Below are positions 259 to 26,445 of a stretch of DNA of 36,125 nt, piece by piece. Location of the stretch: the IMG/VR virus record IMGVR_UViG_2651869781_000013; one strand, 5' to 3'. How positions within the stretch are numbered: position 1 is the stretch's first letter; the number at the start of each line of letters is the position of its first letter. Under the pieces are notes generated by a model, which did not search any database, was not told the DNA's origin, and saw only the letters and a list, made by a program, of their open reading frames with translations. Position numbers and translations under genes: made by a program. The stretch comes from a virus. Taxonomy: Duplodnaviria; Heunggongvirae; Uroviricota; Caudoviricetes.

Positions 259-287
259 TCGTCTGACAAGCCCTCGCGTTGAGGGCT

Positions 288-934: not shown

Positions 935-2620
935 GTGAATATAAACGTCGCCGAATTGTTAAATGGGAATTACATTCTGTTATTATTTGTGGTCCTCGCG
1001 CTTGGGCTATGTCTCGGGAAATTACGACTTGGTTCGATCCAACTGGGTAATTCCATTGGCGTTTTAGTCGTATCGCTGTTATTAGGCCAACAACATTTCA
1101 GCATTAACACCGACGCGCTTAATCTTGGCTTTATGCTGTTTATTTTCTGCGTCGGGGTCGAAGCCGGACCGAACTTTTTTTCCATTTTTTTTCGCGATGG
1201 GAAAAATTACCTAATGTTAGCACTGGTGATGGTTGGCAGTGCGCTGGTGATCGCCTTAGGGTTAGGTAAGCTGTTTGGCTGGGATATTGGCCTGACGGCC
1301 GGTATGTTAGCTGGCTCTATGACGTCGACACCGGTTCTGGTCGGTGCTGGCGATACACTGCGTCATTCCGGCATGGAAAGCAGGCAGCTCTCACTGGCAC
1401 TGGATAATCTGAGCCTCGGGTATGCCTTAACCTATTTAATCGGTCTGGTGAGTTTGATTGTTGGTGCGCGTTACTTGCCGAAATTGCAGCATCAGGACTT
1501 ACAGACCAGCGCCCAGCAAATCGCCCGCGAACGTGGTCTGGACACTGATGCCAACCGTAAGGTTTATTTACCGGTGATCCGCGCCTACCGCGTCGGCCCG
1601 GAGCTGGTGGCCTGGACCGACGGCAAAAATCTGCGTGAACTGGGTATTTATCGACAAACTGGCTGCTACATTGAACGTATTCGACGTAACGGGATTCTGG
1701 CGAATCCAGACGGTGATGCTGTGCTACAAATGGGCGATGAAATAGCGTTGGTAGGCTATCCCGACGCCCACGCACGACTCGATCCCAGCTTCCGTAACGG
1801 CAAAGAAGTTTTCGATCGTGACCTTCTCGACATGCGTATCGTCACTGAAGAAGTGGTCGTTAAAAACCATAACGCCGTGGGCAAACGTCTCGCACAACTG
1901 AAGTTGACCGATCACGGTTGCTTCCTTAACCGCGTCATTCGTAGCCAGATTGAGATGCCGATAGATGACAACGTCGTGCTTAACAAAGGTGACGTTTTAC
2001 AAGTCAGCGGCGATGCCCGTCGCGTAAAAACCATCGCCGATCGCATCGGCTTTATCTCGATTCACAGCCAGGTCACTGACTTGCTGGCATTCTGCGCCTT
2101 CTTTGTTATTGGGCTGATGATCGGGATGATCACCTTCCAGTTCAGCACATTCAGTTTCGGCATGGGGAACGCTGCCGGGTTGTTATTCGCCGGAATTATG
2201 CTGGGATTTATGCGCGCTAACCACCCGACCTTCGGTTACATTCCGCAGGGTGCATTAAGCATGGTGAAAGAGTTCGGCTTAATGGTGTTTATGGCAGGCG
2301 TTGGTCTGAGCGCCGGTAGCGGTATTAATAACGGCCTGGGCGCGATTGGCGGTCAGATGTTGATTGCCGGATTGATTGTCAGTCTTGTGCCAGTGGTTAT
2401 CTGTTTCTTGTTCGGTGCTTATGTATTGCGAATGAACCGCGCACTGTTGTTCGGCGCAATGATGGGCGCACGCACCTGCGCGCCGGCAATGGAGATCATC
2501 AGTGATACAGCTCGCAGTAACATCCCGGCGCTGGGCTATGCGGGCACCTATGCAATCGCCAACGTCCTGCTGACGCTGGCAGGGACAATCATCGTCATGG
2601 TATGGCCAGGATTAGGATAA
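935..2620 (+). CDS. ybjL: putative AAE-family transporter YbjL
   Basis: 561-aa polytopic membrane protein with hydrophobic N- and C-terminal halves around a central soluble region, as in YbjL/YidE; apparent GTG start; host synteny. Confidence 0.8.
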
Positions 2621-2732
2621 AACTGAAGTTGCCCTGAAAATGAAATTTTTTTGCACAACCGCAGAACTTTTCCGCAGGGCATCAGTCTTAATTAGTGCCA
2701 CTGCTTTTCTTTGATGTCCCCATTTTGTGGAG

Positions 2733-2779
2733 CCCATCAACCCCGCCATTTCGGTTCAAGGTTGATGGGTTTTTTGTTG
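2733..2779 (+). terminator. rho-independent terminator downstream of ybjL
   Basis: Inverted repeat cccatcaacc / ggttgatggg (2733-2742 and 2760-2769) followed by a T-run tttttt (2770-2775). Confidence 0.5.
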
Positions 2780-2833
2780 CCTGAAATTTATGCTGTTTAA
2801 AATCATGATGTTAGAAGCACTGTTTTTTAACGA

Positions 2834-2855
2834 TGGCGACAAAATGGCGGCAGCG
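2834..2855. repeat. attR core (prophage right junction)
   Basis: 21/22 identity with 36086-36107; lies immediately after the ogr stop codon, where attP sits in P2. Confidence 0.7.
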
Positions 2856-3074
2856 TCAAAGAGAGAGCGCCACCTGCCCTGATTTCATTGGATGCGGCTG
2901 AACCGGATTTGACTCTTTTGGCGTTGCAATCGAACGAACAAAAGTTTCATGGGTAACAAAAGTATGGCTGCAGTTAATGTTCTGGCACTGGTTGTAACGC
3001 TCTTTGGTCAATGAAGATACCTGAAAACTGCTGCGAGTATGGGCGGCACTTCCACACAGTGGGCAAATCATCAT
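2856..3074 (-). CDS. ogr: late-gene transcription activator Ogr (zinc finger)
   Basis: 72 aa from ATG at 3074 (MMICPLCGSAAHTR...CQNINCSHTF) with CxxC...CxxxxC; RBS GGGGAG upstream; the ORF-track start at 3107 is a GTG extension. Confidence 0.85.
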   Translation of the reverse strand: MMICPLCGSAAHTRSSFQVSSLTKERYNQCQNINCSHTFVTHETFVRSIATPKESNPVQPHPMKSGQVALSL

Positions 3075-3164
3075 TTTTCGAGTTCTCCCCATTTTTGCTA
3101 AATTCACAACAATGATACCGTATTATTCCATTTTGCAAACTTAAAAGTTCTCCATTGCGAAGAA

Positions 3165-4265
3165 TCATTCCATTTCGAAATCATCAATCCTCACTTCAAG
3201 CTCCAGACTGGTCGTAAAACCGTTATCCGGGCTGACAGTATGCGTCAGGGTGGTAATGGTCCATTCCGCATCATCTATCGGCTGTTTAAAACCACTGACT
3301 TTTACAGGCATTTCCGTGTAGAGATCTGCCCGACCTTCTGCCAGTTGTAGCGAGAATGACGCAACGCCGCGTTGCAGGCGTTCCCACTGCATTTTCGCCG
3401 CCCGTTCGGCGTTGCTCCGGTTGGCATAGGTGCGATTAAGTACCAGCACGTTTTCATCTGTACCCACCAGGTAATCGCCCTGCTTCGCTTCCGGCTCTTT
3501 CTTCTGCTTCTTAGTCCTGCGCTTACGCTTCACCGTGGTGCTTTCTTTCTTCGCAGGTTCGCGGGTATGCAACCAGCTGGCAATTACGCCCGTGTAGGCT
3601 CCGCGATCTGCCAGGGTAAATCGGTGACTGTCGCCGTCCTTGCGTGTGATAGTGATCACTGGCAGAGGTTTACCAGTGGCGCTTTTGCCCTGCCCCTGCC
3701 GGATGAATAACAGATTGCCATTTTTCACCGACGCGATGGCACCGTACTGTCGCGCCAGCCGCATCAGAAAACTGCCGTCACTCTCATTAGTCTGGTCTAT
3801 ATGCTCCACTGGCTTATCCGACAGGTCTTTACCCAGTGCCATCTTCAGCTTGTGCCGCGCGGCTATTTCCTTCACCACTTCCCCGACGGTGGTCTTGTGC
3901 CACGACTTTTCACGGCGGGTATTCAGCGTTTCACGAAAATCAGCACTTCGCGCCCGGATAGTCAGGCGGTCCGGTGCGCCAGTGTGTTCAATCTCGTCCA
4001 CCGTGAATGCCCCTTTCGGGAAAAGCGGCTGCCCCTTCCAGCCCAGCGCCAGCGTAATAACCGCACCACGGCGCGGCAGCACGATTTTTCCGTCAGCGTC
4101 ATCCAGCTCCAGATCAAGCTGGTCCGCTTCAAAGCCCCGGTTATCCATCAGCGTCAAACTCATCAGGCGGTTATCCAGCACAGTGGTGATATCCCTGCCC
4201 TCAATACTGATGCTGAATGCGGGAGTTTTGTTGCCTTTGTTAAGCAGTTCAGAGCTGAAATTCAC
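3165..4265 (-). CDS. D: tail protein gpD
   Basis: 366 aa, recalled similarity to P2 gpD (NRGFEADQLDLELDDADG ... VKVSGFK); GTG start overlapping the U stop (GTGA). Confidence 0.85.
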   Translation of the reverse strand: MNFSSELLNKGNKTPAFSISIEGRDITTVLDNRLMSLTLMDNRGFEADQLDLELDDADGKIVLPRRGAVITLALGWKGQPLFPKGAFTVDEIEHTGAPDRLTIRARSADFRETLNTRREKSWHKTTVGEVVKEIAARHKLKMALGKDLSDKPVEHIDQTNESDGSFLMRLARQYGAIASVKNGNLLFIRQGQGKSATGKPLPVITITRKDGDSHRFTLADRGAYTGVIASWLHTREPAKKESTTVKRKRRTKKQKKEPEAKQGDYLVGTDENVLVLNRTYANRSNAERAAKMQWERLQRGVASFSLQLAEGRADLYTEMPVKVSGFKQPIDDAEWTITTLTHTVSPDNGFTTSLELEVRIDDFEME

Positions 4266-4747
4266 GACAGCAGCCCTCCCACCGTTTTACTGATATCGCT
4301 TAAGGCAGACGTTGCCGTGTCCTGCAGATTATTCAGTTGCGCACTGAGATCACCGAACATATCGGACAGGGATTCATCCACTCGTTTGAGCGACAGGGTG
4401 AACTCAATCCGACGCGGCATACCGTCGCGGAAAAACTCCGTTTTAGTCTGATTCAGTCCCTCAATCACATACATGCCGTAAATCGTGCCGCTGCCTTCAA
4501 TCAGGGGCCATGCTTTCCCCTGTTCTGCCATCTGCTCCAGTGCCAGCAACGACAGCCTGCCGCCTGTTATTTCCGGCATAAGAACACCGGAAAGCGTCAG
4601 CATGTCGTTTTCCGGTCCCAGAAACTGCGTGGACGGACGTCGGTTTACCCGGCTGTTTGCCGCATGTCGCCAGCTGCGTTGATACTGCAGTTCCTGATAC
4701 GGAACGGTGCGCAGCATAAACACGTACAATCCCAGCACCATCATCAT
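4262..4747 (-). CDS. U: tail protein gpU
   Basis: 161 aa, ATG start overlapping the T stop (ATGA); P2 gene order T-U-D. Confidence 0.8.
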   Translation of the reverse strand: MMMVLGLYVFMLRTVPYQELQYQRSWRHAANSRVNRRPSTQFLGPENDMLTLSGVLMPEITGGRLSLLALEQMAEQGKAWPLIEGSGTIYGMYVIEGLNQTKTEFFRDGMPRRIEFTLSLKRVDESLSDMFGDLSAQLNNLQDTATSALSDISKTVGGLLS

Positions 4748-7700
4748 GCGTCGTATCCCCCCTGATCGCTGTAGTTACTCCTGGCTTTTGCCTTCAGCCT
4801 GCGTTCACGTTCATCAAGCTGGCGTGCCACCTCCCGCGCAATATCCTGCGCACTTTGTCCTGGCTGCGTCTGAATGATGATCTGCGTCGGTGCCTCAATC
4901 CGTTGAACGAGCGGCACAGTGGCTGCGCGACTCACAATTGCTTCTCCACCTTTCGCGGGAAGTGCCAAAGGGTGCAACGGTGGAAGCTCTGCTGGCGCGG
5001 CAGCAACGCCCATCATTCCGGCAACAACGGCAGCCAGTGCAGCTGTATTTCTCCGGCTGGTCACATTTGCCGGGCCGTTAACAATTTCCGGCCCGTTTTC
5101 ACCGACGATGCCAAACTGCCCGCGCGGGATATACCCGCCGCTGTCATACATCCCCGCAAAGCCATATCCCCATGATGGAAAACCACCCGATGGCATCATC
5201 ACTTTACCGTCTGCATTCACCGTCACAGGTTGCTGACGCGTCACGCTTTCCGGCAGTTTTGCCTTTGCGGCCTCTTTACTGACAATGCCGAGCTTCTCCA
5301 GCAACCAGGAAACGCCGGATTTCAGGGAGTCCAGCGGATGCATGACCATATTCAGCCCTTCCGCCAGTGCCTCCCCGAATCGCCGCCCCATTGCCGCTGC
5401 GCTCTGCAGTTCGGCAGAGGTCGACTTAACGGGCGTCAGCAGATCAGTAAACCAGCCCCACAGCGCCTGCACTTTGTCGCCAATCCACTGGAACACGGGC
5501 TTAAGCGGTTCGAACGCTGCACTGATGGGACCTGCCGCCGCTTTGAATCCTTCCACCACGCCACCGAGAAATGCGGTGATGGGTTGCCAGTATTTCCAGA
5601 CAACCAGCGCCACGCCCGCCAGTGCAGTAACCACAAGACCTATCGGACTGAGCAGAGCACCTAACAGACCAGATATGGCATACAGGGCAACGCGCAGCAT
5701 CGCCAGTGGACCAGATGCCAGTACTCGCAGCACCGTGCCTGCGGCGGCCAGTCCACCGCGCAGTACCGCCAGAGGATTCATAAACATCACAGCAACAGCA
5801 CGTAAACCGGATAATCCAGACCGCAAAAGTGCAACCGGCGCACCTGCTACAGTTTTCAGGACATTTCCCGTCAGTGATGCCGTGCGGCGCAAAGACGACA
5901 ACGGCGCAGTAAGTAAACCTGCGGCGTTGCCCGATGAAGCAAGCCCGCGTCGCAGCAGTGCCAGTGGTGCGCCAGCCAGCCAGGACAACGCGCTGCTGGT
6001 TCGAGTTACTGCTGCCGTAACGGAAGATAACGTTTTGATACCCAACACAGAGAATCCCAGACGGATCACTGCCAGCGGCCCCAGCACTGCAGCCAGCGCC
6101 ACCGCTAAGGTGCCGAGGCCGACGGTAACCGCAGCCACAACAGCCGATGCTTTCATCAGTGTGCCTGTCAGTTCCGGGTTAGCTTCCACCCAGCGACGCA
6201 ACGCCCCCGTGACGCTTTTCACCGTGTACAGAATATCCATCAGCGGCTGGCGCAGCGTTTCGCCCAGGCTGCTGAAGGTGTTCTGCGCTCCGGTTTTGAC
6301 CAGCAACCACTGCGCAGAAAGTGAATCCTTGTTAATGTCGGATTCTTTCTGCATGGAGCCGAGCGCATCATTGCCCGCTGTCAGTTTTAACTGACGCTGC
6401 AGTTCCGGCAGGTTGTTTGCCAGTTTCGCCGCGTCATCGCCAAACTCTTTACCAAACAACATAGTCATGGCAGACAGGCGCTTGTCCTGCGGCAGCGCGT
6501 TTACCTTCTCCAGCACGCGCTGGATGGTTCCCATCGCATCCTTCGTCATCTGCTTTTCAATCACTTCAGGATTGAGTTTCAGCAGATTCATCCCTTCAAA
6601 GAAACTCTTGCTTTGCATGGTGGCAATGGACAATTCACGCACCATCGCGTTTGCTGCACTGGCTGCAACCTCTGGCGCAGCGCCCAGTGTCAGGAAGGTG
6701 GAACCCAGCGCCGCCGCTTTACGATAATCCAGACGATCAGCCACACCGCCCAGACGTTGCATCACATCAATGATGTCTGCCCCTTTCGACATGGCGTTAT
6801 CATCCAGATAGTTCAGCGCATCACCGAGCTGTTCAATATTGCGGGTGGGGATTTTGTAGAGCTGGGCGATTTTCCCCAGACTTTCTGACAGTTCATCCGC
6901 TGGCAGCTCAAAGGCTGTTGCCGCCTTTGCTGCCGTACTGGCGAAGGCCAGCAGGTCACGTTTCTGATCTTCCCAGCTGTCGTCAGGGTTTGCGACGTTC
7001 ATGCGCGCACCACCTTCAACCAGTGCAGCGAAGTCCACCGCACCGTTTTCCATCGGCAACTGTTCGCTGGCAGCCTTGATGGCATCCTGCATTTCATAAA
7101 AACGTGCAGTGCGGTTGCCATTATCGTCACGCAGACCATTGACCTGCTTTGCCACACCTTTCATGGCATCTTCCATGCTGGTATAGCTTTTTACTGCCGC
7201 CATCACTGGCGCACCCATTGCCAGCCCTGCAGCCGTGGTGGTGGCTCCGGCACCTGCAATACGATCACGCACCTCCAGCGAACGGGCATAACTGGCACGC
7301 GCTGCATTCATCCTGCGCTGAGCTTCCCCCAGTCGCTTCAGCCGCGCCTCCTGTTTCGAAAGTTCCTGGTTATAACGTGATGTTTCACGGGCTAAACGGG
7401 CAGTTGCTCCCGCATCGTCTTTCGCAGAAATTCCCGCCCGGTACAGTTCAGCACGCACAAGCGCCGTCTGCTGCTGCAGCTTTTTCTGGCGTTCTTCCAG
7501 GCGCTGAACAGCCAGCCGTTGACGGCCCAGAGCAACAACCTGACGTTGCGAAGGCGGCCCCATCGCTCCCAGTTCCTGACTGAGCAAATTTGCACGCTGG
7601 CGGGCATAGTTCAGCCTGTCGCCTAATTTCTGATTTTCTGCCTGCAGCTTTCGGAAGCTGTCCAGACTGCTCCCGGCCTGATCAAGCTGCTTTATTGCAT

Positions 7701-7821
7701 CGCGGGATTTTTTGACAGCAGCAGCCAGTTCTCTTGAACTGGCCTGCGCAGATCGAAATGGGCGGGTGAGCTTGTCAACCGCATTAAGAATGACCTGCAG
7801 ACGCAGGTTGTTATCACTCAT
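4744..7821 (-). CDS. T: tail tape measure protein gpT
   Basis: 1025 aa, coiled-coil N-terminus and Ala/Gly/Leu-rich hydrophobic middle typical of tape measure proteins; position between E/E' and U. Confidence 0.85.
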   Translation of the reverse strand: MSDNNLRLQVILNAVDKLTRPFRSAQASSRELAAAVKKSRDAIKQLDQAGSSLDSFRKLQAENQKLGDRLNYARQRANLLSQELGAMGPPSQRQVVALGRQRLAVQRLEERQKKLQQQTALVRAELYRAGISAKDDAGATARLARETSRYNQELSKQEARLKRLGEAQRRMNAARASYARSLEVRDRIAGAGATTTAAGLAMGAPVMAAVKSYTSMEDAMKGVAKQVNGLRDDNGNRTARFYEMQDAIKAASEQLPMENGAVDFAALVEGGARMNVANPDDSWEDQKRDLLAFASTAAKAATAFELPADELSESLGKIAQLYKIPTRNIEQLGDALNYLDDNAMSKGADIIDVMQRLGGVADRLDYRKAAALGSTFLTLGAAPEVAASAANAMVRELSIATMQSKSFFEGMNLLKLNPEVIEKQMTKDAMGTIQRVLEKVNALPQDKRLSAMTMLFGKEFGDDAAKLANNLPELQRQLKLTAGNDALGSMQKESDINKDSLSAQWLLVKTGAQNTFSSLGETLRQPLMDILYTVKSVTGALRRWVEANPELTGTLMKASAVVAAVTVGLGTLAVALAAVLGPLAVIRLGFSVLGIKTLSSVTAAVTRTSSALSWLAGAPLALLRRGLASSGNAAGLLTAPLSSLRRTASLTGNVLKTVAGAPVALLRSGLSGLRAVAVMFMNPLAVLRGGLAAAGTVLRVLASGPLAMLRVALYAISGLLGALLSPIGLVVTALAGVALVVWKYWQPITAFLGGVVEGFKAAAGPISAAFEPLKPVFQWIGDKVQALWGWFTDLLTPVKSTSAELQSAAAMGRRFGEALAEGLNMVMHPLDSLKSGVSWLLEKLGIVSKEAAKAKLPESVTRQQPVTVNADGKVMMPSGGFPSWGYGFAGMYDSGGYIPRGQFGIVGENGPEIVNGPANVTSRRNTAALAAVVAGMMGVAAAPAELPPLHPLALPAKGGEAIVSRAATVPLVQRIEAPTQIIIQTQPGQSAQDIAREVARQLDERERRLKAKARSNYSDQGGYDA

Positions 7822-8250
7822 CGTTGGCCCCGCTTCTCTGAATCGCTTTATACCGCCATTCCAGCACTTCGGTCAGCGGCATAACGTCAGTAACGGATGG
7901 CGGCCAGTGAAAAATGGTGGCGATATCTGCCACCAGATCGTCAACCGTCAGGCTGTCGGTAAACCGGCAAGCACCGACTTCTTCAACAAAAAAGTGACAA
8001 CCTCAACCGACATGGCAGTGAGATCTGCCGGGTCCATCTCTGCAATTTCCTGTGCAGTCAGTGCCGGACTGGAGATGCGGGGGATCACGGTCATCATCGC
8101 GTTTACATCCATATCCATAATGGCCTGCAGGCGTGTACCGCGCAGCGCACCGGACTGCGGTTTACGCAGTACAATTTCGGTGATTTCTGTTTTACCGCGC
8201 TTGATGGGGGTATCCAGTTGAATGGTCTTTTCAGTCTGCTTATCGCTCAT
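7814..8250 (-). CDS. tail assembly chaperone gpE+E' (programmed -1 frameshift product)
   Basis: Slippery heptamer T TTT TTG at 7993-7987 (minus strand) in the E frame; the -1 frame is open for 59 further codons and its stop (7816-7814) overlaps the T start. Confidence 0.75.
7948..8250 (-). CDS. E: tail assembly chaperone gpE
   Basis: 100-aa ORF directly upstream of T; contains the slippery heptamer near its 3' end. Confidence 0.8.
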   Translation of the reverse strand: MSDKQTEKTIQLDTPIKRGKTEITEIVLRKPQSGALRGTRLQAIMDMDVNAMMTVIPRISSPALTAQEIAEMDPADLTAMSVEVVTFLLKKSVLAGLPTA

Positions 8251-8304
8251 TTTGCTGTCCTGTCAATTGGGTTCTGGCGCGGTATCCCGCGCCGTTCAGA
8301 TATA

Positions 8305-8820
8305 TCAGAGGCCGAGGGCGTTGCGGTGCGCTTCCATCAGGTCCACACCGTCCACAATTTCCACCATGTTGATAAGGTCCACTTCATAGAGCACCTCACC
8401 ATTGATGGTCAGCTTCGCGTAGCTGTTGGTACTGGTCACTTTGGTGGTGTTGCTTTCGCCCGTCTTCCACTCGCCGGAATCCACTTCTTTATGACGTCCA
8501 CGCACGACAAGCTCCACGGCCTGCACTTCCCCGGTATCGTCACGCTGAATAGAGCCGGTAAAGCGCAGCTGGATGCCATCCACCGTGGCTTTCCCCATCT
8601 GTTTAAACAGCAGCAATTCAGTACCACCAATGGAAAATTCTGTGTCCAGCGCACTGTCATCAAGCCCCAGATCCACATCCACCGCACCCGGCATTCCGCC
8701 GCCGCGATACTTCTCATATTTGCGGGTAAATTTCGGCAGCGTCAGCGACTCAACGATCCCCTGCCAGTTGTTCCCGTCGTTAAACAGGTTCAGGTGTTTT
8801 AATTTGCGTGGTAAAGCCAT
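8305..8820 (-). CDS. FII: tail tube protein gpFII
   Basis: 171 aa, ATG start with RBS GGGGA; position downstream of FI as in P2. Confidence 0.85.
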   Translation of the reverse strand: MALPRKLKHLNLFNDGNNWQGIVESLTLPKFTRKYEKYRGGGMPGAVDVDLGLDDSALDTEFSIGGTELLLFKQMGKATVDGIQLRFTGSIQRDDTGEVQAVELVVRGRHKEVDSGEWKTGESNTTKVTSTNSYAKLTINGEVLYEVDLINMVEIVDGVDLMEAHRNALGL

Positions 8821-8829
8821 GTTGTCCCC

Positions 8830-10002
8830 TTACGCGCTGACCTGGCTGGCGAAATTCACCAGGTACTGATCGGTGATGCGCTGACGCAGCATCAGGTTTT
8901 CAAGTGGCGGCACTGGCGTGTAGTCGTAGTCGATGGTGAGTTTTCCGGCTTTCAGCGTGTCTTTGTCGTTCACCGACTCATCCAGCCAGCAATCACCACC
9001 AATGAGATAGCCCTGACTGACCAGGCTGCGCATTTTGGCGCGGATACCCTCGATAATGTCGCGCGCCAGCGACGGGTTAAGCGGTTTATCCACCGCCCAC
9101 ATGTGTGCTTCTGCCATCGTGTCCATCAGCACCTGCGCCGTGCGGGTGTAGTTTTCGAAGGCAAAGAGCGGGTCATCACTCAGGCAGCGGGAACCCCAGA
9201 AGCGGAAACCGTCTTTACGCACAAGCGTGGTGACGTCGTTCTGGTTCAGCAGACCTGCATCGGTTGCCGGGTCCTGCAGATCCCAGAACACATCTGCAGA
9301 AATTCCGGTGACACCGTTCACGCCCACGTTGGACAGGCTTTTGTGCCATCCGGTCTGCTCGTCAATTTTGGCGCGCAGACCAAGCGCACGGGCGGTAGCA
9401 TATGCCGTTGCTTCGGCATTCAGCACCGTGTCCCAGCCAGTAAAGTCAGGCCAGATCAGCATCCCTTCGCGCTGGCTGAAGTTTTCGCGGTAAGTGATCG
9501 CCTCCTGCACTGTCTTGCAGCCATACGCTGACAGGTAAGCAAATCCACGCAGGCTTTGCGCCACGCTCAGCAACTCAGTAGCTACCGCCTTGGTGTCGTG
9601 GCCTGGCACGCCGAGAATGCGCGGTTTAACGCCGAGCTGTGACTGGGCAGATAACAGGGCTTTCATACCTGTTTTTTTACCTTCAGCAGTCACTGCGCCG
9701 ATGATATTGGTCGTGGTTTCGTCTTCCGTTTCACCCTGCGGCACACGCACAACAATGGTCACGGGTTTTGCCTGGTCAGCGATGGCATCCAGCGAACGGG
9801 CCAGAGTACCTGACTCACCCGCTTTACCGCTGGCAGTCAGCACATCAGTGATCAGCACGGGTTTATTAAGAGGAAACATTTTTGCATCGGCATCATCGCC
9901 CGTGCAGACCATACCCACGATGGCGGTGCTCACCGTGGTAATAGATCGGGTGCCTTCGTTGACTTCAACAACGCGCACCCCGTGGTGGTAATCCTGAGCC
10001 AT
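8830..10002 (-). CDS. FI: contractile tail sheath protein gpFI
   Basis: 390 aa, strong RBS AGGAGG; recalled similarity to P2 FI. Confidence 0.9.
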
Positions 10003-10078
10003 AGTGGCGAACCTCCTGATTGGATTAGGCTTCGCCCTATGTTGAAGTGATTGTGCCTGACAAACAGCTAAGCGCAGT

Positions 10079-10096
10079 TGTGTCGTTATTCACACA
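10079..10096. promoter_or_regulatory. Ogr-type activator dyad TGT-N12-ACA of late promoter P_F
   Basis: TGTGTCGTTATTCACACA; centre about 85 bp upstream of the FI ATG. Confidence 0.55.
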
Positions 10097-10144
10097 AAAT
10101 AACGGTATTTGTCTGCTTGCAGGGATAATCAACATAATGCTGAT

Positions 10145-10711
10145 TCAGGGGGATTCATTGATCTTATTTGCCGGAAATTTTCTATAAATGGTAGAAACGC
10201 CTACATCAAAAATCAGTGCAATACGCTGTCTTGATTCTCCGGCCTCGAGTAAACGCCCAATCTGTGCCCACTGTTCGGTGGTCAACTTAGGACGGCGTCC
10301 ACCTACTCTGCCTTTGGCACGAGCTGCAGCCAGCCCTGCCCTGGTACGTTCAACTATCAGTTCGCGTTCCATTTCAGCCAGGGCACCCATGACATGAAAA
10401 AAGAAACGGCCCATTGGGGTACTGGTATCAATACTGTCAGTCAGGCTTCTGAAATTCACACCACGCTGGCGCAACTCTTCTATCAGCGTAACAAGATGTC
10501 GCATACTGCGCCCCAACCTGTCCAGCTTCCAGACAACCAGCGTGTCTCCTGCCGATAGTGTCCTGAGTAGTTTTTTCAGCCCCGGTCTGTCGGACTTAGT
10601 GCCACTGATTTTGTCCTCAAAAATCCGCTCACATCCCGCGCAGTTCAGTGCATTACGTTGCAAATCGGTGTTCTGGTCATTTGTTGACACGCGTACATAG
10701 CCAATAAGCAT
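10145..10711 (-). CDS. serine DNA invertase (Gin/Hin/Pin/Cin family)
   Basis: 188 aa from ATG 10711: MLIGYVRVSTNDQNTDLQ...DTLVVWKLDRLGRS...C-terminal HTH; closely resembles recalled Mu Gin; RBS GGGGGA. Confidence 0.9.
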   Translation of the reverse strand: MLIGYVRVSTNDQNTDLQRNALNCAGCERIFEDKISGTKSDRPGLKKLLRTLSAGDTLVVWKLDRLGRSMRHLVTLIEELRQRGVNFRSLTDSIDTSTPMGRFFFHVMGALAEMERELIVERTRAGLAAARAKGRVGGRRPKLTTEQWAQIGRLLEAGESRQRIALIFDVGVSTIYRKFPANKINESP

Positions 10712-10767
10712 GATCATCCCCCTGAATAAAAACCGGAGATGATGCCAGTTAGCTGTTACCTCTGCAT

Positions 10768-10791
10768 TTTCTTAAACGTTGGTTTAGGAGA
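10768..10791. repeat. gix/hix-like inversion crossover site 1
   Basis: TTCTTAAACGTTGGTTTAGGAGAA; its reverse complement TTCTCCTAAACC-AA-CGTTTAAGAA matches the left half and AA core of site 2; about 55 bp upstream of the invertase gene. Confidence 0.7.
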
Positions 10792-11137
10792 AGCGGCGAA
10801 AAGGGATGTGGGCACAGGAGATAATCAGATACCTGATATGTCTTACTGGTCTTCACCGGCAGGCGGAATTAATTTCCCGAATGGGTTCCAGATGCGATTC
10901 GGGACTATCGCTGGTACTGGTGGAAAATTATTTTCTACGCCATTTACAAATCAGTGCTATGGCATTGTTTTCGGACAAACATATGGAGCCAACTACTGGA
11001 TGTTCAGCCCGATGTACAGAGCATCTGATCTGAGTAATACCGGTTTTGCATTCATTAACAAAACCTGGTCTGGCGTTCCGGGGGTAGGTTCTCAGGACGC
11101 TGGTGAATCAGTTTTTTATATTGCAGTAGGGTATTAA
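10781..11137 (+). CDS. alternative tail-fibre C-terminal cassette (silent in this orientation)
   Basis: Open frame continuing in phase from the crossover site (GLGEAAKRDVGTGDNQ...); no independent promoter or RBS; would fuse to H residues 1-350 after inversion. Confidence 0.65.
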   Translation, partial: GLGEAAKRDVGTGDNQIPDMSYWSSPAGGINFPNGFQMRFGTIAGTGGKLFSTPFTNQCYGIVFGQTYGANYWMFSPMYRASDLSNTGFAFINKTWSGVPGVGSQDAGESVFYIAVGY

Positions 11138-11138
11138 T

Positions 11139-11582
11139 ATGGAAATGGTTTATAGCGCCTCAAATAATAGTTTTTTCGCTAAAAATGATGTGGCGAAATA
11201 TGAACAGACCGGATGGGAACTTGCTGATATTGTCGAAGTGACATATGACACTTACCTGGAATTTATTGAAGACAGAACGTTGCAAGGGAAAGTACGCATC
11301 GCGGGTGATGATGGCCTTCCCGCCTGGGGGGAAATTCCACCGCCAACTCATGAGGAACAAATTGCCGCAGCCGAACTGGAAAAGCAGCAATTGATTAATC
11401 AGGTCAACGAATACATATACAGTAAGCAATGGCCTGGTAAAGCAGCGATTGGTCGCCTGAAAGGTGAGGAACTGGCGCAATATAATTTGTGGCTGGATTA
11501 TCTGGACGCACTGGAACTGGTTGATACCTCCAGTGCTCCAGATATTGAATGGCCTACGCCTCCGGCAGTTCAGGCCAGATGA
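11139..11582 (+). CDS. alternative tail fibre assembly protein (Tfa, U'-like)
   Basis: 147 aa, ATG right after the cassette stop (TAATATG); C-terminus APDIEWP resembles the active Tfa C-terminus APDVIWP. Confidence 0.75.
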   Translation: MEMVYSASNNSFFAKNDVAKYEQTGWELADIVEVTYDTYLEFIEDRTLQGKVRIAGDDGLPAWGEIPPPTHEEQIAAAELEKQQLINQVNEYIYSKQWPGKAAIGRLKGEELAQYNLWLDYLDALELVDTSSAPDIEWPTPPAVQAR

Positions 11583-12165
11583 CATCCGGCGCGGTGCTCG
11601 TATCTGTTGCCGTCACCGCGTCAATGTAATCAAGCACGGCGTTAAGCCGGGTGGTTTCTGCCTGCGTCAGCTTCCGCCCGGCCTGTAATTTCAGCTGAAT
11701 CAGACTGATGGAAGCCATTGCAGCATCAATCAGTGACTGGCGCTGTGCTTCTGCCGCTTCTACTGCGGCGCTATGCTGTGCCTCAGTATCTGTCACCCAT
11801 TTCTCACCATCCCATTCATCGTATGGAGTTAACGGGGCGATAGTGGTTGTATTTTCAGGATATTCGCCAATTTCGGTGATGGTGATTTCATCGCCGTTTT
11901 CAGTGTTGTAAACAGTTTCGCCACGATGGTCAGCAACGTATTCCCAACTGGTTAAATCAGCCTTGCGGCAGATTGCGAAACCTTCTTTTTTGCTGCCCGG
12001 CGCATCAACGCAGGAATTAGCTGGAACGCCAGCGCCAACCGGCAGATATTCAACGGATGAACCAATATATTCACGCGTTTCGCCATTGTAGTTGTAAACG
12101 GTAATAAATCCAGCCTCAGTGGCAAAACCGTTTTCATCCAAAGTGATTTTTTTTGTGGTCATCAT
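11554..12165 (-). CDS. G: tail fibre assembly protein (gpG-like Tfa), active orientation
   Basis: 203 aa, ATG overlapping the H stop (ATGA); convergent with and overlapping the alternative tfa by 29 nt. Confidence 0.8.
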   Translation of the reverse strand: MMTTKKITLDENGFATEAGFITVYNYNGETREYIGSSVEYLPVGAGVPANSCVDAPGSKKEGFAICRKADLTSWEYVADHRGETVYNTENGDEITITEIGEYPENTTTIAPLTPYDEWDGEKWVTDTEAQHSAAVEAAEAQRQSLIDAAMASISLIQLKLQAGRKLTQAETTRLNAVLDYIDAVTATDTSTAPDVIWPELPEA

Positions 12166-13625
12166 GCTGCCCTTACAATGTAGTTAAATGCAATGTTGCG
12201 CGGCCTTGTTTCAGTCCCACCCGTCGCATTAGTTTCCCTACTGGAGGTGCCTCCGGTTTTTAATACATCATCTGCGCTGGTAGCTGATGTTGCCCCGCTA
12301 ACTCGGATAGCTAATAAATGCGTATGAGATTGGATTGCTCCTCCCTGCGCAGATAGCAATGCACGGCCACTATCTATCCCTCGACCATCATCCCAGCCAC
12401 GAATAAATTCACCGCATAAATCAGGCACTTTATTTGTCGGATAAGCCTTCGCCAGTTCCGGGTATTCTTCAGCAGAAAAAGCGGCACCGTTGCATTTCAG
12501 CCAGCCTGTTGGCGGAGTGGCGGAAGGCCACGGAACAGGCACGCCAACGGGTAATGCCGAACCTTCTCCCAAACCAAGGTATGTGAGAAGACCAGCTACA
12601 TCCTTTCCACTCAAATTGGTAAGCGTATTGTCCAGCGGTTGTTTACCTGCCAGCGCATTAAGCATTGTCGTGGCAAAGTTCGGATCATTCCCCAGTGCCG
12701 CCGCCAGTTCGTTCAGTGTATCCAGTGCAGCAGGTGCAGAACCCACCATTCCTGCAATCGCCGATTTCACAAAAGCCGTAGTGGCAATCTGTGTATTGTT
12801 GACCGACTGCGCCGCCGTGGGGGCTGTTGGCGTTCCGGTGAGTGCCGGACTCGACAACGGTGCTTTTAGTGCCAGCGCATTGTTAATGGTGGTACTGAAA
12901 TTCGGATCATTGTTAATGGCTGCGGCTATTTCTTTCAGCGTGTCCAGCGTGGCTGGCGCACCATTAATAAGGGCCGTCAGTGCCGCCTGTACAAACGCAG
13001 TGGTCGCAACCTGCGTGGTATTATTCCCCGCCGCTGGCGTTGGCGCTTTGGGGGTTCCGGTAAATGTCGGGCTGGCTTTTGGCGCGTACTGTGAATGCGG
13101 GTCCGGTGCGGCAAGATGTTTTGCCATCTGATCATCCGCGTACACCTTCAGCTCCAGTGCCTTGTCATCCACATACTTGCGGGTTGCCAGCACTACAGCA
13201 GGGTCGATTTTCAGGGTGATATTGTCCGTGCTGCTGGTAATCAGCACCATGCGCACGGTCTGAGTGCGCCCGCTACCTTCAGCCAGTTGCGGCTTATAGC
13301 TTTCCGGGCAGTTGCCCACGGCAATCAATGCCCCGGACTCATCAAACAAGCCCACTTCACGTATCCACCAACCGCCCTCGTTTTCAGGGATCACCTGTTC
13401 GGCAATAATCTGGCTGCTGTTCTGCGTGTCGATATAAAGCATATTCAGCGCAGCCCGGCGTTTCTCATTTACCAGTGCCGTCTGCTTTGCGTCCGGCGTT
13501 GGCAATACTCCACCGCCATCGCCCACCGCCATATGGGTAATTTTTAGCGGCACACCGAGCGCGGCGGCGCTGGCAAGTTTCGCCGCGCCAATATCCGTCA
13601 GCAGGGTATAAAATTTTGTGCTCAT
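12162..13625 (-). CDS. H: tail fibre protein gpH (constant N-terminus plus currently expressed variable C-terminus)
   Basis: 487 aa; Ala/Thr-rich repeats; crossover site falls at codons 346-355. Confidence 0.85.
   Translation of the reverse strand: MSTKFYTLLTDIGAAKLASAAALGVPLKITHMAVGDGGGVLPTPDAKQTALVNEKRRAALNMLYIDTQNSSQIIAEQVIPENEGGWWIREVGLFDESGALIAVGNCPESYKPQLAEGSGRTQTVRMVLITSSTDNITLKIDPAVVLATRKYVDDKALELKVYADDQMAKHLAAPDPHSQYAPKASPTFTGTPKAPTPAAGNNTTQVATTAFVQAALTALINGAPATLDTLKEIAAAINNDPNFSTTINNALALKAPLSSPALTGTPTAPTAAQSVNNTQIATTAFVKSAIAGMVGSAPAALDTLNELAAALGNDPNFATTMLNALAGKQPLDNTLTNLSGKDVAGLLTYLGLGEGSALPVGVPVPWPSATPPTGWLKCNGAAFSAEEYPELAKAYPTNKVPDLCGEFIRGWDDGRGIDSGRALLSAQGGAIQSHTHLLAIRVSGATSATSADDVLKTGGTSSRETNATGGTETRPRNIAFNYIVRAA
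12564..12589. repeat. gix/hix-like inversion crossover site 2 (inside H)
   Basis: TTCTCCCAAACC-AA-GGTATGTGAGAA on the plus strand; inverted relative to site 1; encodes LLTYLGLGEG in the H frame. Confidence 0.7.
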
Positions 13626-14227
13626 GGATTCACTCTCATTGTGTCAATAACATGGACCGCCCCGCCTTCATGCGCGGTGCCACCGGAAATAATCGTTTCG
13701 TTGATATACGGATAGATCGTGATTTCTTCGCCAAGATAGCTGGCGGCTCCCACCCAATGCGGGCCGCTGGTCTGCAGATTGATGGACATGCCGATCATGT
13801 GGCGGCTACATGGTTTGGCATCGCTTATCAGTCGCTCAAGTTCCAGATAGGTATCTTCAGTGATGCCCTGGTCCTGCACGCCGATATCCAGGCGAAACGT
13901 GCCCGGTGTTTCTCCGGTCTGCCACCACTCAATAATGCGGATCAGGAATCCGAACGGTTCCACCACCCGCCGCACGGCACTGGTGGTTCCTTTATGCTGA
14001 TGAATATAAAAAGCATCCTTCACTACCTGGCGTTTGACGCTTTCTGTCCAGCCCTCGTCCCAGCGATCCACAGAGAACGCCCAGGCGAGATAAGGCAGGA
14101 AGCTGACCGGACAGGTAGCCGGATTCCACAAGTCACGAAGCGGCACCTGCAAATCAGAAATCCCGCTACAGGTTTGCGCCAGTCGGCGCTCCAGTGAAGT
14201 TGAACCCGGTGGCAGCAGACTATTCAT
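13622..14227 (-). CDS. I: baseplate protein gpI
   Basis: 201 aa, ATG; follows J in P2 order. Confidence 0.8.
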   Translation of the reverse strand: MNSLLPPGSTSLERRLAQTCSGISDLQVPLRDLWNPATCPVSFLPYLAWAFSVDRWDEGWTESVKRQVVKDAFYIHQHKGTTSAVRRVVEPFGFLIRIIEWWQTGETPGTFRLDIGVQDQGITEDTYLELERLISDAKPCSRHMIGMSINLQTSGPHWVGAASYLGEEITIYPYINETIISGGTAHEGGAVHVIDTMRVNP

Positions 14228-22067: not shown

Positions 22068-23834
22068 ATGAACACCACACTGACACCCGCAGATCTCGAT
22101 CCCCGTCGGCAGGCCATGCTGCTGTACTTTCAGGGATACCGCGTCGCCCGCATTGCTGAAATGCTGGGAGAGAAAGTTGCAACCGTTCACAGCTGGAAAA
22201 AACGCGACAAGTGGGGTGACTATGGGCCGCTGGATCAGATGCAGCTCACCACCGCCGCACGCTACTGCCAGCTCATTATGAAGGAGCACAAAGAAGGGAA
22301 AGATTTCAAAGAGATTGACCTGCTGGCGCGCCAGTCTGAACGCCACGCGCGGATCGGCAAGTTTAACAATGGCGGCAACGAAGCCGACTTAAACCCTAAC
22401 GTCGCCAACCGTAACAAAGGCCCGCGCCGTCAGCCGGAAAAGAACGTTTTCACCGATGAACAGATTGAGAAGCTGGAAGAAATCTTCCATTCCTCCATGT
22501 TCAACTACCAGCGCCACTGGTGGGAAGCCGGAAAAACCAACCGCATCCGCAACCTGCTGAAGTCACGCCAGATCGGCGCGACCTTCTATTTTGCCCGTGA
22601 AGCCCTGATTGACGCCCTGCTAACCGGGCGTAACCAGATTTTCCTTTCCGCCAGCAAGGCTCAGGCCCACGTCTTTAAGCAGTACATCATCGACTTCGCC
22701 AAAGAAGTGGAGGTGGAGCTGAAAGGCGATCCGATGGTGCTTCCTAACGGGTCCACGCTTTACTTCCTCGGCACCAATGCCCGCACTGCCCAGAGTTATC
22801 ACGGCAACCTGTATCTGGATGAATATTTCTGGATACCGAAATTCCAGGAGCTGCGCAAAGTGGCTTCCGGTATGGCTATTCACAAGAAATGGCGACAAAC
22901 CTATTTTTCCACGCCATCCAGCCTGACTCATAGTGCTTATCCGTTCTGGTCCGGTGCGCTGTTCAACCGTGGGCGCAACAAAGCCGATAAGGTGGACATC
23001 GACCTGTCCCACAGCAATCTTGCCCCCGGCCAGCTGTGCGCCGACGGGCAATACCGCCAGATAGTCACCGTGGAAGATGCGGTGCGCAGCGGCTGTAACC
23101 TGTTCGACCTTGACCAGTTGCGCATGGAGTACAGCCCGGACGAATACCAGAACCTGCTAATGTGCGAGTTTGTTGACGATCTCGCGTCCGTGTTTCCGCT
23201 CAGCGAGCTGCAGGCGTGCATGGTGGACAGTTGGGAAGTCTGGACCGACTTTCATGCTCTGGCCCTGCGCCCATTTGGCTGGCGCGAAGTGTGGATCGGT
23301 TATGACCCGGCAAAAGGTACGCAGAACGGCGACAGCGCCGGATGCGTGGTGGTGGCACCGCCAGCCGTGCCAGGCGGTAAGTTTCGCATTCTTGAGCGTC
23401 ACCAGTGGCGCGGGATGGACTTCCGTGCCCAGGCGGACGCAATCAAAAAACTGACCGAGCAGTACAACGTGACCTACATCGGCATCGACTCAACCGGCGT
23501 TGGTCACGGGGTTTACGAGAACGTGAAAGCGTTCTTTCCTGCCGTCCGGGAGTTTGTCTACAACCCCAACGTTAAAAACGCCCTGGTACTCAAGGCCTAC
23601 GACATTATCAGCCACCGCCGTCTGGAGTTTGACGCCGGACACACCGACATAGCGCAGTCATTCATGGCAATCCGTCGCTCCACCACCGCCAGTGGCAACC
23701 GCCCGACCTATGAAGCCAGCCGCAGCGAAGAAGCCAGCCACGCCGATCTGGCATGGGCAACGATGCACGCACTGTTTAACGAACCGCTGCAGGGCGAATC
23801 CGCCAATACCAGCAATATTGTGGAGATTTTTTGA
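22068..23834 (+). CDS. P: terminase large (ATPase) subunit gpP
   Basis: 588 aa; recalled similarity to P2 gpP. Confidence 0.9.
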   Translation: MNTTLTPADLDPRRQAMLLYFQGYRVARIAEMLGEKVATVHSWKKRDKWGDYGPLDQMQLTTAARYCQLIMKEHKEGKDFKEIDLLARQSERHARIGKFNNGGNEADLNPNVANRNKGPRRQPEKNVFTDEQIEKLEEIFHSSMFNYQRHWWEAGKTNRIRNLLKSRQIGATFYFAREALIDALLTGRNQIFLSASKAQAHVFKQYIIDFAKEVEVELKGDPMVLPNGSTLYFLGTNARTAQSYHGNLYLDEYFWIPKFQELRKVASGMAIHKKWRQTYFSTPSSLTHSAYPFWSGALFNRGRNKADKVDIDLSHSNLAPGQLCADGQYRQIVTVEDAVRSGCNLFDLDQLRMEYSPDEYQNLLMCEFVDDLASVFPLSELQACMVDSWEVWTDFHALALRPFGWREVWIGYDPAKGTQNGDSAGCVVVAPPAVPGGKFRILERHQWRGMDFRAQADAIKKLTEQYNVTYIGIDSTGVGHGVYENVKAFFPAVREFVYNPNVKNALVLKAYDIISHRRLEFDAGHTDIAQSFMAIRRSTTASGNRPTYEASRSEEASHADLAWATMHALFNEPLQGESANTSNIVEIF

Positions 23835-24868: not shown

Positions 24869-24877
24869 TTAAAGCCT

Positions 24878-25754: not shown

Positions 25755-25763
25755 AAATGTGAT

Positions 25764-26426: not shown

Positions 26427-26445
26427 TTTAGTCACCTCCGTTGTT

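What the first reader, a model, noticed from the sequence alone, without database searches (positions are those of the whole stretch)
10145..12589. Invertase-driven tail-fibre switch with two gix-like crossover sites and an in-frame alternative fibre C-terminus
A Gin/Hin-type serine invertase gene sits next to a segment bounded by inverted 26-bp sites sharing the half-site TTCTCC[C/T]AAACC and an AA core (10768-10791 and 12564-12589). Site 2 lies inside H at codons 346-355 (LLTYLGLGEG). Site 1 precedes a promoterless frame that reads GLGEAAKRDV... in the same phase. Inversion would therefore swap the last ~137 residues of H for a different ~118-residue C-terminus and bring the alternative tfa gene behind it, a likely host-range switch of the Mu G-segment type. 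The two tfa genes converge and overlap by 29 nt.
Basis: partly seen in the sequence, partly recalled or inferred. Interest (0 to 1): 0.55.

Follow-up and report, generated by a model that had tools for sequence, protein, structure and literature searches.

The report
Invertible tail-fibre switch in P2-like prophage

Summary
Two 26-bp crossover sites (10767-10792 and 12564-12589) lie in inverted orientation about 1.8 kb apart. They are the only two matches to the invertase-site consensus in the 36-kb window, with none expected by chance. Beside them sits a 188-aa serine invertase that is 84% identical to e14 PinE, 77% to P1 Cin and 74% to Mu Gin.

A simulated inversion at the AA core fuses the constant 350 residues of tail-fibre protein H in frame to the silent cassette. 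The result is a 468-aa protein followed directly by the second chaperone gene.

That exact 468-aa protein exists in public data (WP_249533617.1). It comes from an E. coli contig 99.98% identical to the window. That contig carries both the native junction and the predicted recombinant junction, and the crossover maps to a 7-nt interval containing the core.

Two pairs of E. coli complete genomes differ by a perfect inversion of the homologous segment. Native and inverted layouts are both common (38 versus 28 genomes).

A homologous locus in EPEC E2348/69 was shown experimentally to phase-vary (Goldberg 2014). Fels-2/Fin is another P2-like case.

Verdict: real, almost certainly active, and ordinary. 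The effect on host range is inferred, not shown.

The parts
10145..10711 (-). Serine DNA invertase gene of the Pin/Gin/Cin family, 188 aa. It lies outside the invertible segment and is transcribed away from it.
   Evidence: Pfam Resolvase (E 2e-53) plus HTH_7. PHROG 125 'DNA invertase', E 7e-101. Mu Gin structure 3uj3, E 1e-92, with the catalytic Ser9 motif YVRVSTNDQ conserved. Identity is 157/188 to e14 PinE, 144/188 to P1 Cin and 140/188 to Mu Gin. The exact protein is found on at least 1000 contigs.
10622..10693 (.). Presumed Fis-dependent recombinational enhancer, covering invertase nt 19-90. Assigned by homology only.
   Evidence: Positional homologue of the enhancer annotated in P1 cin (L008 5679-5750). 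56/72 nt are identical to it, against a median of 50/72 for 72-nt windows across the gene. A Fis-like 15-mer, GCGCGGGATGTGAGC, starts at nt 71 as in cin and gin. This is coding sequence, so the conservation is not independent evidence.
10767..10792 (.). Crossover site 1, proximal to the invertase. Core TT/AA at 10779-10780.
   Evidence: It is 25/26 identical to the invertase-proximal site of the experimentally phase-variable EPEC locus and 24/26 identical to the pin-proximal site of e14.
10779..12577 (.). Invertible segment, from core dinucleotide to core dinucleotide (about 1.8 kb).
   Evidence: Simulated inversion. Homologous segments are exact reverse complements between E. coli NQ3 and LS4 and between SF-468 and APEC 16-1068. 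GC content is 45-51%, against about 55% in the flanking structural genes.
10781..11137 (+). Silent alternative fibre C-terminus Hv' (118 codons, GLGEAAKRDV...). It has no start codon of its own in this state.
   Evidence: In frame with the constant part of H after inversion. PHROG 1396 tail fiber, E 1.5e-27. Weak Pfam Gp53-like_C match. The predicted fusion protein exists exactly as WP_249533617.1.
11139..11582 (+). Alternative tail-fibre assembly chaperone gene tfa' (147 aa), silent in this orientation.
   Evidence: Pfam Caudo_TAP, E 3e-30. PHROG 188, E 1e-56.
11554..12165 (-). Currently expressed tail-fibre assembly chaperone gene tfa (203 aa, TfaE-like). It overlaps tfa' by 29 nt.
   Evidence: Pfam Caudo_TAP, E 8e-31. 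157 identical residues in a 198-column alignment with e14 TfaE.
12162..12575 (-). Currently expressed variable C-terminus Hv of tail fibre H (residues 351-487, tail-collar domain).
   Evidence: Pfam Collar, E 8e-14, at residues 361-408. 102 identical residues in a 165-column alignment with the e14 StfE C-terminus.
12564..12589 (.). Crossover site 2, inside H at codons 346-354. Core AA at 12576-12577.
   Evidence: It resembles P1 cixR, TTCTCTTAAACCAAGGTATTGGATAA.
12576..13625 (-). Constant N-terminal part of tail fibre H (residues 1-350), outside the segment.
   Evidence: Pfam Phage_tail_fib, E 2e-64. Follows P2-type genes I, J, W and V.

Best explanation
This is an active site-specific inversion switch of the Din family (Gin/Cin/Pin/Hin), built into the tail-fibre region of an apparently intact P2/186-like E. 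coli prophage.

**Proposed mechanism.**
1. Invertase dimers bind the two inverted 26-bp sites.
2. On supercoiled DNA, and most likely with Fis bound to an enhancer in the 5' part of the invertase gene, they form a synaptic tetramer.
3. Both sites are cut at the central AA/TT dinucleotide through Ser9. One half of the complex rotates by 180 degrees and the ends are rejoined.
4. This flips the roughly 1.8-kb segment.

**Consequence.** The constant 350 residues of fibre protein H are transcribed from the late operon V-W-J-I-H. After a flip they are joined either to a collar-domain tip (StfE-like) with its TfaE-like chaperone, or to a gp53-like tip with a second chaperone. A population of lysogens would then release particles of two receptor specificities.

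**Shown here:** the sites, the enzyme family, the in-frame geometry, and the natural occurrence of both orientations with the crossover inside the site.

**Inferred:** Fis and enhancer dependence, the cleavage chemistry, and the change of host range.
For: **Sites and geometry**
- The two sites are unique in the window and not expected by chance.
- When each site is read from its conserved half, both have the same asymmetric AA core. This is the condition for inversion rather than a blocked reaction.
- The fusion is in frame and the chaperone gene follows it.

**Enzyme**
- The invertase is 74-84% identical to Gin, Cin and PinE. Ser9 and the DRLGR motif are intact, and it has wild-type Met at the Gin M114 position.

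**Natural recombinants of this allele**
- The predicted 468-aa recombinant protein exists exactly in public data.
- Contig JZXJ01000057.1 is 99.98% identical to the window. It holds both the native junction and the 56-nt predicted recombinant junction.
- The two half-site polymorphisms place the crossover in the 7-nt stretch AAACCAA, which contains the core.

**Natural recombinants of homologous prophages**
- E. coli NQ3 and LS4 have 6.8 kb of identical sequence around a 1902-bp segment that is an exact reverse complement. The same holds for SF-468 and APEC 16-1068.
- 38 E. coli complete genomes cover at least 80% of the native layout, and 28 cover at least 80% of the inverted layout.

**Experimental precedent**
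- The homologous EPEC E2348/69 locus has an invertase-proximal site identical at 25/26 positions. It was shown by sequencing to coexist in both orientations (PMC4272514 Table S1).
Against: - No read-level data were examined for the strain that carries this exact window. Flipping in this strain is inferred from a 99.98%-identical relative and from homologues.
- Site 1 has a degenerate outer half-site (9/12 matches to the inner consensus, counted by eye from the sequences).
- No convincing sigma-70 promoter was found for the invertase gene, so its expression level is unknown.
- The palindromic contig is an assembly artefact. It proves that both junctions were in one read set. It does not exclude two prophage copies fixed in opposite states.
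- Neither fibre tip has a close relative in an isolated phage with a known receptor. The best matches are 65% identity for Hv and 36% full-length identity for Hv'. Host-range switching is therefore by analogy only.
Confidence: 0.9

Rival explanations
1. Fossil switch. The layout descends from an invertible segment, but in this prophage it no longer flips, because the invertase is poorly expressed or site 1 is too degenerate. The observed orientation differences between genomes would then be old, rare events.
For: The outer half of site 1 is degenerate. No clear invertase promoter was found. The EPEC homologue sat at about 93% in one orientation.
Against: - A 99.98%-identical prophage carries both junctions in one assembly.
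- Genomes that are otherwise identical over 6.8 kb differ only by the flip, with no mismatches in the segment. This argues for recent events.
- The same degenerate outer half-site (CGTTTAAGAAAA) is present in the EPEC locus that flips experimentally.
- The invertase motifs are intact.
Confidence: 0.05
2. Inversion by general (RecA-dependent) homologous recombination between the inverted repeats, with the neighbouring recombinase gene playing no part.
For: The repeats share 15-18 nt of near-identity.
Against: - Fifteen to eighteen nt with mismatches is very short for efficient RecA recombination (established knowledge).
- The repeats match the 12-2-12 consensus of Din-family sites, and the gene next to them encodes a Gin-like enzyme.
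- The crossover maps to the interval containing the core.
- Related invertases are known to catalyse exactly this reaction in Mu, P1 and e14.
Confidence: 0.02
3. A host-serving function rather than, or in addition to, phage host range. One orientation would produce a fibre-tip protein that protects the lysogen by blocking the receptors of other phages. This was reported for PinQ-driven inversion of the e14 P segment, which creates StfE2 and blocks T2 adsorption.
For: The expressed cassette is the StfE/TfaE homologue, with 102 identical residues in the alignment to StfE and 157 in the alignment to TfaE. The precedent is PMC12529663.
Against: - The prophage looks complete. It has integrase, CI, CII, replication, head, lysis and tail genes.
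- H sits in a late operon that should be silent in a lysogen.
- A P2-type late-promoter dyad is retained next to the locus.
- No expression data are available.
Confidence: 0.04

Closest known systems
e14 cryptic prophage P segment with PinE (E. coli K-12)
   Same: - The invertase is 157/188 identical.
- The invertase gene lies outside the segment and is transcribed away from it.
- The invertase-proximal site is 24/26 identical.
- One cassette (StfE C-terminus plus TfaE) is homologous.
- The convergent tfa genes overlap by the same 29 nt.
   Different: - e14 is a defective remnant of a different phage type. Here the switch sits in a complete P2/186-like prophage, between H and FI.
- The second cassette (gp53-like tip plus a 147-aa Tfa) is only distantly related to StfP/TfaP: TfaP shares 62 identical residues in a 124-column alignment, and the tips show no clear similarity.
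Invertible tail-fibre loci of P2-like prophages in EPEC E2348/69 (Goldberg et al. 2014, PMC4272514)
   Same: - The locus at NC_011601.1 2977580-2979467 has the same layout: collar cassette, tfa, convergent tfa', gp53-like cassette, site, invertase, tail sheath.
- Its invertase-proximal site is 25/26 identical and its invertase is 146/188 identical.
- Both orientations were shown to coexist.
   Different: - That EPEC prophage is truncated, with the constant part of H replaced by an integrase fragment.
- The other EPEC P2-like locus has three repeats and four states. The window has only two sites.
Phage Mu G segment with Gin
   Same: - Constant and variable fibre parts (Sc/Sv, U, U', S'v).
- The invertase lies outside the segment and is transcribed away from it, with the site about 67 bp upstream of its start. 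In the window the distance is 68 bp.
- The invertase is 140/188 identical.
- The host-range switch is experimentally established for Mu (established knowledge).
   Different: - The gix core is GA rather than AA.
- The segment is 3 kb.
- The fibre sequences are unrelated outside the crossover region.
- U and U' do not overlap.
Phage P1 C segment with Cin
   Same: - The invertase is 144/188 identical.
- The cix sites have an AA core, and cixR (TTCTCTTAAACCAAGGTAT...) is very close to site 2.
- The enhancer annotated in the 5' part of cin aligns at 56/72 nt.
   Different: - cin is transcribed towards the segment, and cixL overlaps its 3' end.
- The segment is 4.2 kb.
Salmonella Fels-2 (P2-like) with Fin, and Hin/H segment
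   Same: Fels-2 is a P2-like prophage with a pin homologue next to tail-fibre genes. The tail-fibre genes were found inverted between LT2 and LT7, with alternative C-termini fused to the same N-terminus (PMC7953296).
   Different: - Fels-2 was not compared at sequence level here.
- Hin flips a promoter rather than a coding cassette, and hin lies inside its segment (established knowledge).
R64-type shufflon (Rci)
   Same: Alternative C-termini of an adhesin are produced by DNA inversion.
   Different: The shufflon uses a tyrosine recombinase and many sfx sites. Here there is a serine recombinase and two sites. The window's switch is not a member.

Membership tests
Din-family serine DNA invertase systems (Gin/Cin/Pin/Hin) | Small serine recombinase of about 190 aa, with an N-terminal catalytic domain carrying the nucleophilic Ser9/10 and a C-terminal HTH. 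| tested here: met
   Pfam Resolvase plus HTH_7. Full-length alignment to Gin 3uj3 at E 1e-92, with YVRVSTNDQ and LDRLGRS conserved. 74-84% identity to Gin, Cin and PinE.
Din-family serine DNA invertase systems (Gin/Cin/Pin/Hin) | Two 26-bp sites (12-2-12, imperfect dyads) in inverted orientation in cis, with identical asymmetric core dinucleotides. | tested here: met
   Sites at 10767-10792 and 12564-12589. Both have an AA core when read from the conserved half. They are the only two matches to the consensus in 36 kb, with 0 expected, and they are close to cixR, cixL and the e14 sites.
Din-family serine DNA invertase systems (Gin/Cin/Pin/Hin) | Fis-bound recombinational enhancer in cis, typically in the 5' part of the invertase gene. 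| tested here: inconclusive
   The region homologous to the annotated P1 cin enhancer is 78% identical, and a Fis-like 15-mer sits at the same position. It is coding sequence, however, and Fis binding cannot be tested here.
Din-family serine DNA invertase systems (Gin/Cin/Pin/Hin) | The segment is actually found in both orientations, with the crossover inside the sites. | tested here: met
   - The exact predicted junction and the exact predicted protein occur in a 99.98%-identical prophage, with the crossover mapped to 7 nt around the core.
- Homologues show perfect inversions.
- Not tested on reads from the window's own strain.
Invertible tail-fibre (host-range) switch of the Mu G / P1 C / e14 P type | A constant fibre N-terminus outside the segment, and two alternative in-frame C-termini inside it, each with its own chaperone gene. 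| tested here: met
   Simulated inversion gives H of 487 aa or H' of 468 aa, with 354 residues shared (350 encoded outside the segment plus GLGE, encoded by the conserved inner half-site of both cassettes). Each is followed directly by a Caudo_TAP gene.
Invertible tail-fibre (host-range) switch of the Mu G / P1 C / e14 P type | The two orientations give particles with different receptor or host specificity. | not testable with these tools
   The two tips belong to different domain families, Collar and gp53-like, and neither has a close characterised relative.
P2-like (Peduoviridae, 186-type) prophage | P2 gene order and P2-specific protein families for the tail, baseplate, head and control regions. 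| tested here: met
   - Pfam families P2_Phage_GpR, Phage_tail_S, Phage_base_V, GPW_gp25, Baseplate_J, Tail_P2_I, sheath, tube, Phage_P2_GpE and the tape measure appear in P2 order in the 100%-identical locus L009.
- CI, CII (CP76), a Dam methylase and an integrase are also present.
Multiple-inversion systems (p15B Min, three-repeat EPEC locus) and shufflons | Three or more crossover sites that generate more than two arrangements. For shufflons, also a tyrosine recombinase. | tested here: not met
   Only two sites are found, even with 3 mismatches allowed, and the recombinase is serine-type.

The most novel reading that the evidence does not exclude
The switch might also serve the lysogen. The expressed cassette is the StfE/TfaE homologue. 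Leaky or induced expression of one fibre form could therefore block receptors used by other phages, as reported for PinQ-driven inversion of the e14 P segment. The prophage invertase could also flip e14-type segments elsewhere in the genome in trans. That would make an intact P2-like prophage's host-range switch double as a phase-variable defence.
Probability: 0.05. Interest if true: 0.5.

Novelty: already known. Interest (0 to 1): 0.13.

Why it matters
**Scientific weight.** There is little here beyond a clean, well-supported example. Invertible tail-fibre cassettes driven by Gin/Pin-type invertases have been known for decades in Mu, P1 and e14. They have also been shown in P2-like prophages of E. 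coli and Salmonella.

**Practical value.**
- Annotation: RefSeq calls the silent cassette a free-standing 'gp53-like domain-containing protein' and the invertase merely a 'recombinase family protein'.
- Assembly: the segment breaks short-read assemblies or turns them into palindromic contigs.
- Phage host-range work: the two tips have no characterised receptors.

Tried and rejected
- **NCBIfam.** It gave only sub-threshold hits for the invertase and nothing for the fibre or chaperone genes.
- **PADLOC.** It gave nothing for the invertase or for the cargo ORFs.
- **Third site.** A search for a third crossover site, which would indicate a multiple-inversion system, was negative.
- **Promoter scan.** It found no convincing sigma-70 promoter for the invertase gene or for the silent cassette. 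I draw no conclusion about invertase expression. The absence fits the 'promoterless' description of the silent cassette but does not prove it.
- **Genome-contig scan.** A scan for the 33-nt site-plus-H-constant pattern returned only one species representative, Escherichia sp. MOD1-EC7003. It was of little use for distribution. Its 1860-bp contig, however, carries the constant end of H at both termini, which is the usual assembly signature of a flipping segment.
- The contig was reached through the native H instead.
- **e14 segment length.** I considered whether the 1797-bp core-to-core length matching the published length of the e14 P segment was meaningful. My own site positions in e14 give a different spacing, so I make no claim.
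- **Palindromy check.** My first check of the two arms of contig L010 was mis-registered. The BLAST coordinates are the evidence for the palindrome.


Full report
**What is in the sequence.** The region lies in the tail module of a P2/186-like prophage.

On the minus strand the gene order is V, W, J, I, H (12162-13625, 487 aa), tfa (11554-12165). After the switch region come the sheath gene FI (8830-10002) and the tube gene FII.

Between tfa and FI lie, on the plus strand, a frame without a start of its own (10781-11137) and a second tfa (11139-11582). On the minus strand there is a recombinase gene (10145-10711).

Pfam assigns these as follows:
- H: Phage_tail_fib plus Collar.
- Both small genes: Caudo_TAP.
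- The recombinase: Resolvase plus HTH_7.
- The startless frame: a weak Gp53-like_C match. PHROGs gives it a clear tail-fibre match instead (phrog_1396, E 1.5e-27).

**The sites.** The longest inverted repeat in 9900-13800 pairs 10767-10793 with 12563-12589. Read as 12-2-12 sites they are:
- TTCTCCCAAACC AA GGTATGTGAGAA (site 2)
- TTCTCCTAAACC AA CGTTTAAGAAAA (site 1, reverse complement)

Both are shown. The 14-mer TTCTCCYAAACCAA occurs only at these two places, with none in 100 shuffles. The generic consensus TTCTCNNAAACCWWGGTTTNNGAGAA, with up to three mismatches allowed, also finds only these two.

The known sites they resemble are:
- P1 cixR: TTCTCTTAAACC AA GGTATTGGATAA
- P1 cixL, same half-site and AA core
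- Mu gix: TTCCTGTAAACC GA GGTTTTGGATAA

Both window sites have the same asymmetric AA core when read from the conserved half, and they are inverted relative to each other. That is the geometry a serine invertase needs for inversion.

Site 2 ends in codon 354 rather than 355. These are small slips.

**The enzyme.**
- The 188-aa protein aligns end to end with Mu Gin (PDB 3uj3 and 4m6f, E about 1e-92). It keeps the Ser9 motif YVRVSTNDQ and LDRLGRS. It has Met where the crystallised hyperactive Gin carries Val.
- It is 157/188 identical to e14 PinE, 144/188 to P1 Cin and 140/188 to Mu Gin.
- The second ATG (10711) has a GGGGGA five bases upstream and matches the length of the RefSeq homologues. 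I take it as the start.
- As in Mu, the gene lies outside the segment and reads away from it. The site core lies 68 bp upstream of its start, against 67 bp in Mu.

**The enhancer, by homology only.** The stretch homologous to the enhancer annotated in P1 cin is 56/72 identical to it. A Fis-like 15-mer sits at the same position as in cin and gin. This is coding sequence, so I count it as compatible with an enhancer, not as evidence for one.

**Consequence of inversion.** I inverted 10779-12577 in silico.
- H remains open and becomes 468 aa.
- The first 354 residues are unchanged, because GLGE is encoded by the conserved inner half-site of both cassettes.
- The last 133 residues are replaced by 114 different ones.
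- The 147-aa tfa' then begins one base after the new stop.

The same 29-nt overlap occurs in the homologous loci of other E. coli strains and in e14. It is a family trait, not a peculiarity of this window.

**Does it flip? Evidence for this allele.**
- The window is 100% identical over 13.5 kb to E. coli assembly GCA_001265575.1.
- The predicted chimeric 468-aa protein exists letter for letter in public data as WP_249533617.1. The native 487-aa H is WP_052931697.1.
- The chimera comes from contig JZXJ01000057.1 of GCA_002075165.1, which is 99.98% identical to the window.
- That contig runs from V-W-J-I-H through the segment and back out into H-I-J-W-V on the other strand.
- Such a palindromic contig is an assembly artefact. 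It arises only if reads join the constant part of H to both ends of the segment.
- The contig contains both the native junction and my 56-nt predicted recombinant junction exactly.
- The two sites differ at one base in the inner half and at the base just after the core. This places the crossover in the seven bases AAACCAA, which include the core.

**Does it flip? Evidence from homologous prophages.**
- E. coli NQ3 and LS4 are two yak isolates whose chromosomes differ in length by one base. Their loci are identical over 6.8 kb, except that a 1902-bp segment bounded by the sites is an exact reverse complement.
- SF-468 and APEC 16-1068 show the same pattern for a 1793-bp segment, with one flank mismatch.
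- Among 5426 complete E. coli genomes, 38 cover at least 80% of the native layout and 28 cover at least 80% of the simulated inverted layout. The best scores are identical in the two sets.
- A 1860-bp contig of Escherichia sp. MOD1-EC7003 carries the constant end of H at both termini, which is the same assembly signature.

**Published precedent.**
- Goldberg et al. 2014 (PMC4272514) detected coexisting orientations by sequencing. They confirmed e14 and the three-repeat P2-like locus by PCR. The loci were e14, a Mu prophage and two P2-like prophages of EPEC E2348/69.
- I fetched their locus at NC_011601.1 2977580-2979467. It has the same layout, an invertase-proximal site 25/26 identical to site 1, and an invertase 146/188 identical.
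- Zaworski et al. 2021 (PMC7953296) describe the same kind of inversion in the P2-like prophage Fels-2, next to the pin homologue fin.
- A 2024 preprint notes that invertases, with inversion of the neighbouring genes, are frequent at this P2 tail-fibre hotspot.

**Mechanism and what remains inferred.** The mechanism follows the family.
1. Invertase dimers bind the two sites, with a Fis-bound enhancer.
2. Both sites are cleaved at the core through Ser9.
3. The subunits rotate and the ends are religated.
4. The late operon then reads into one of two tip-plus-chaperone cassettes.

The sites, the enzyme family, the frame and the natural recombinants are shown here. Fis dependence, the chemistry and the phenotypic effect are inferred.

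The two tips belong to different domain families. Neither has a close relative in an isolated phage (best 65% identity for Hv and 36% full-length for Hv'), so the receptors are unknown.

**Rivals.**
- *A fossil switch* is unlikely, given identical flanks with flipped segments and both junctions in one assembly.
- *RecA recombination* is unlikely for 15-18 nt of imperfect identity that happens to match an invertase site next to an invertase gene.
- *A defence role*, like that reported for PinQ and the e14 P segment (PMC12529663), cannot be excluded, because the expressed cassette is the StfE/TfaE homologue. But the prophage looks intact and H is a late gene.

**Verdict.** The feature is a standard, already documented kind of switch, and its closest relative is the e14 Pin system. 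Interest is low. The useful by-products are the annotation and assembly caveats listed under Noticed in passing.

Noticed in passing
window 24600-28200: A low-GC island (39-45% GC, against about 55% in the prophage core) lies between the portal gene (23831-24868) and the replication gene A (28203-30617). This is the position of the P2 old/tin cargo hotspot. It holds three ORFs: 24906-25754 (282 aa), 25764-26534 (256 aa, weak HTH) and 26446-27255 (269 aa). None has a PADLOC hit and they have almost no Pfam hits. RefSeq homologues are named TIGR04255 family protein, transcriptional regulator and hypothetical. This may be uncharacterised defence cargo.
   Followed up: partly
L010 (GCA_002075165.1 contig JZXJ01000057.1), locus 1-13464: This public contig is a palindromic misassembly centred on the invertible segment. 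The same tail genes (V, W, J, I, H) appear on both sides in opposite orientation, and RefSeq protein WP_249533617.1 derives from it.
   Followed up: yes
L006 (Escherichia sp. MOD1-EC7003, 1860-bp contig): A stand-alone contig of about the length of an invertible segment carries the constant end of H plus the site at both termini. Its coverage is 149x, against 111x for the neighbouring contig. This is the typical signature of a flipping segment in a short-read assembly, here with different cassettes.
   Followed up: partly
window 10739-11137: The mechanical ORF that starts at ATG 10739 (132 aa) contains the silent cassette. RefSeq annotates its homologues as free-standing 'gp53-like domain-containing protein' genes. 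In the flipped state the other cassette is annotated as a short 'phage tail protein'. These are probably annotation artefacts of silent cassettes.
   Followed up: partly
window 10079-10096: A TGT-N12-ACA dyad (TGTGTCGTTATTCACACA) lies in the 142-bp gap between the invertase stop and the FI start. It has the form of the Ogr/B activator site of P2 late promoters. This suggests that the FI operon promoter is retained downstream of the inserted switch.
   Followed up: no
window 10725-10750, minus strand: A weak terminator-like hairpin followed by a T run lies between site 1 and the invertase start. It might insulate the invertase gene from late-operon read-through. The stem has only 6 pairs and the count of such sites is not above chance.
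   Followed up: no
window 288-2620 and 30614-35392: The host flank at the left end carries ybjM (288-665) and a YbjL-like permease (935-2620). The prophage control region is of the 186 type: CI repressor (33392-33967), CII/CP76 (32509-33024), Dam-type methyltransferase (30614-31531) and integrase (34283-35392). The attachment sites were not mapped.
   Followed up: no
window 11554-11582; L001 3071-3099; L003 3055-3083; L011 3654-3682; L013 4018-4046: The 29-nt overlap of the two convergent chaperone genes is conserved in every homologous locus examined, including e14 tfaP/tfaE. In Mu and P1, by contrast, U and U' are separated by 28 nt. The reason is unknown. Only one of the two genes is transcribed in sense at any time.
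   Followed up: partly
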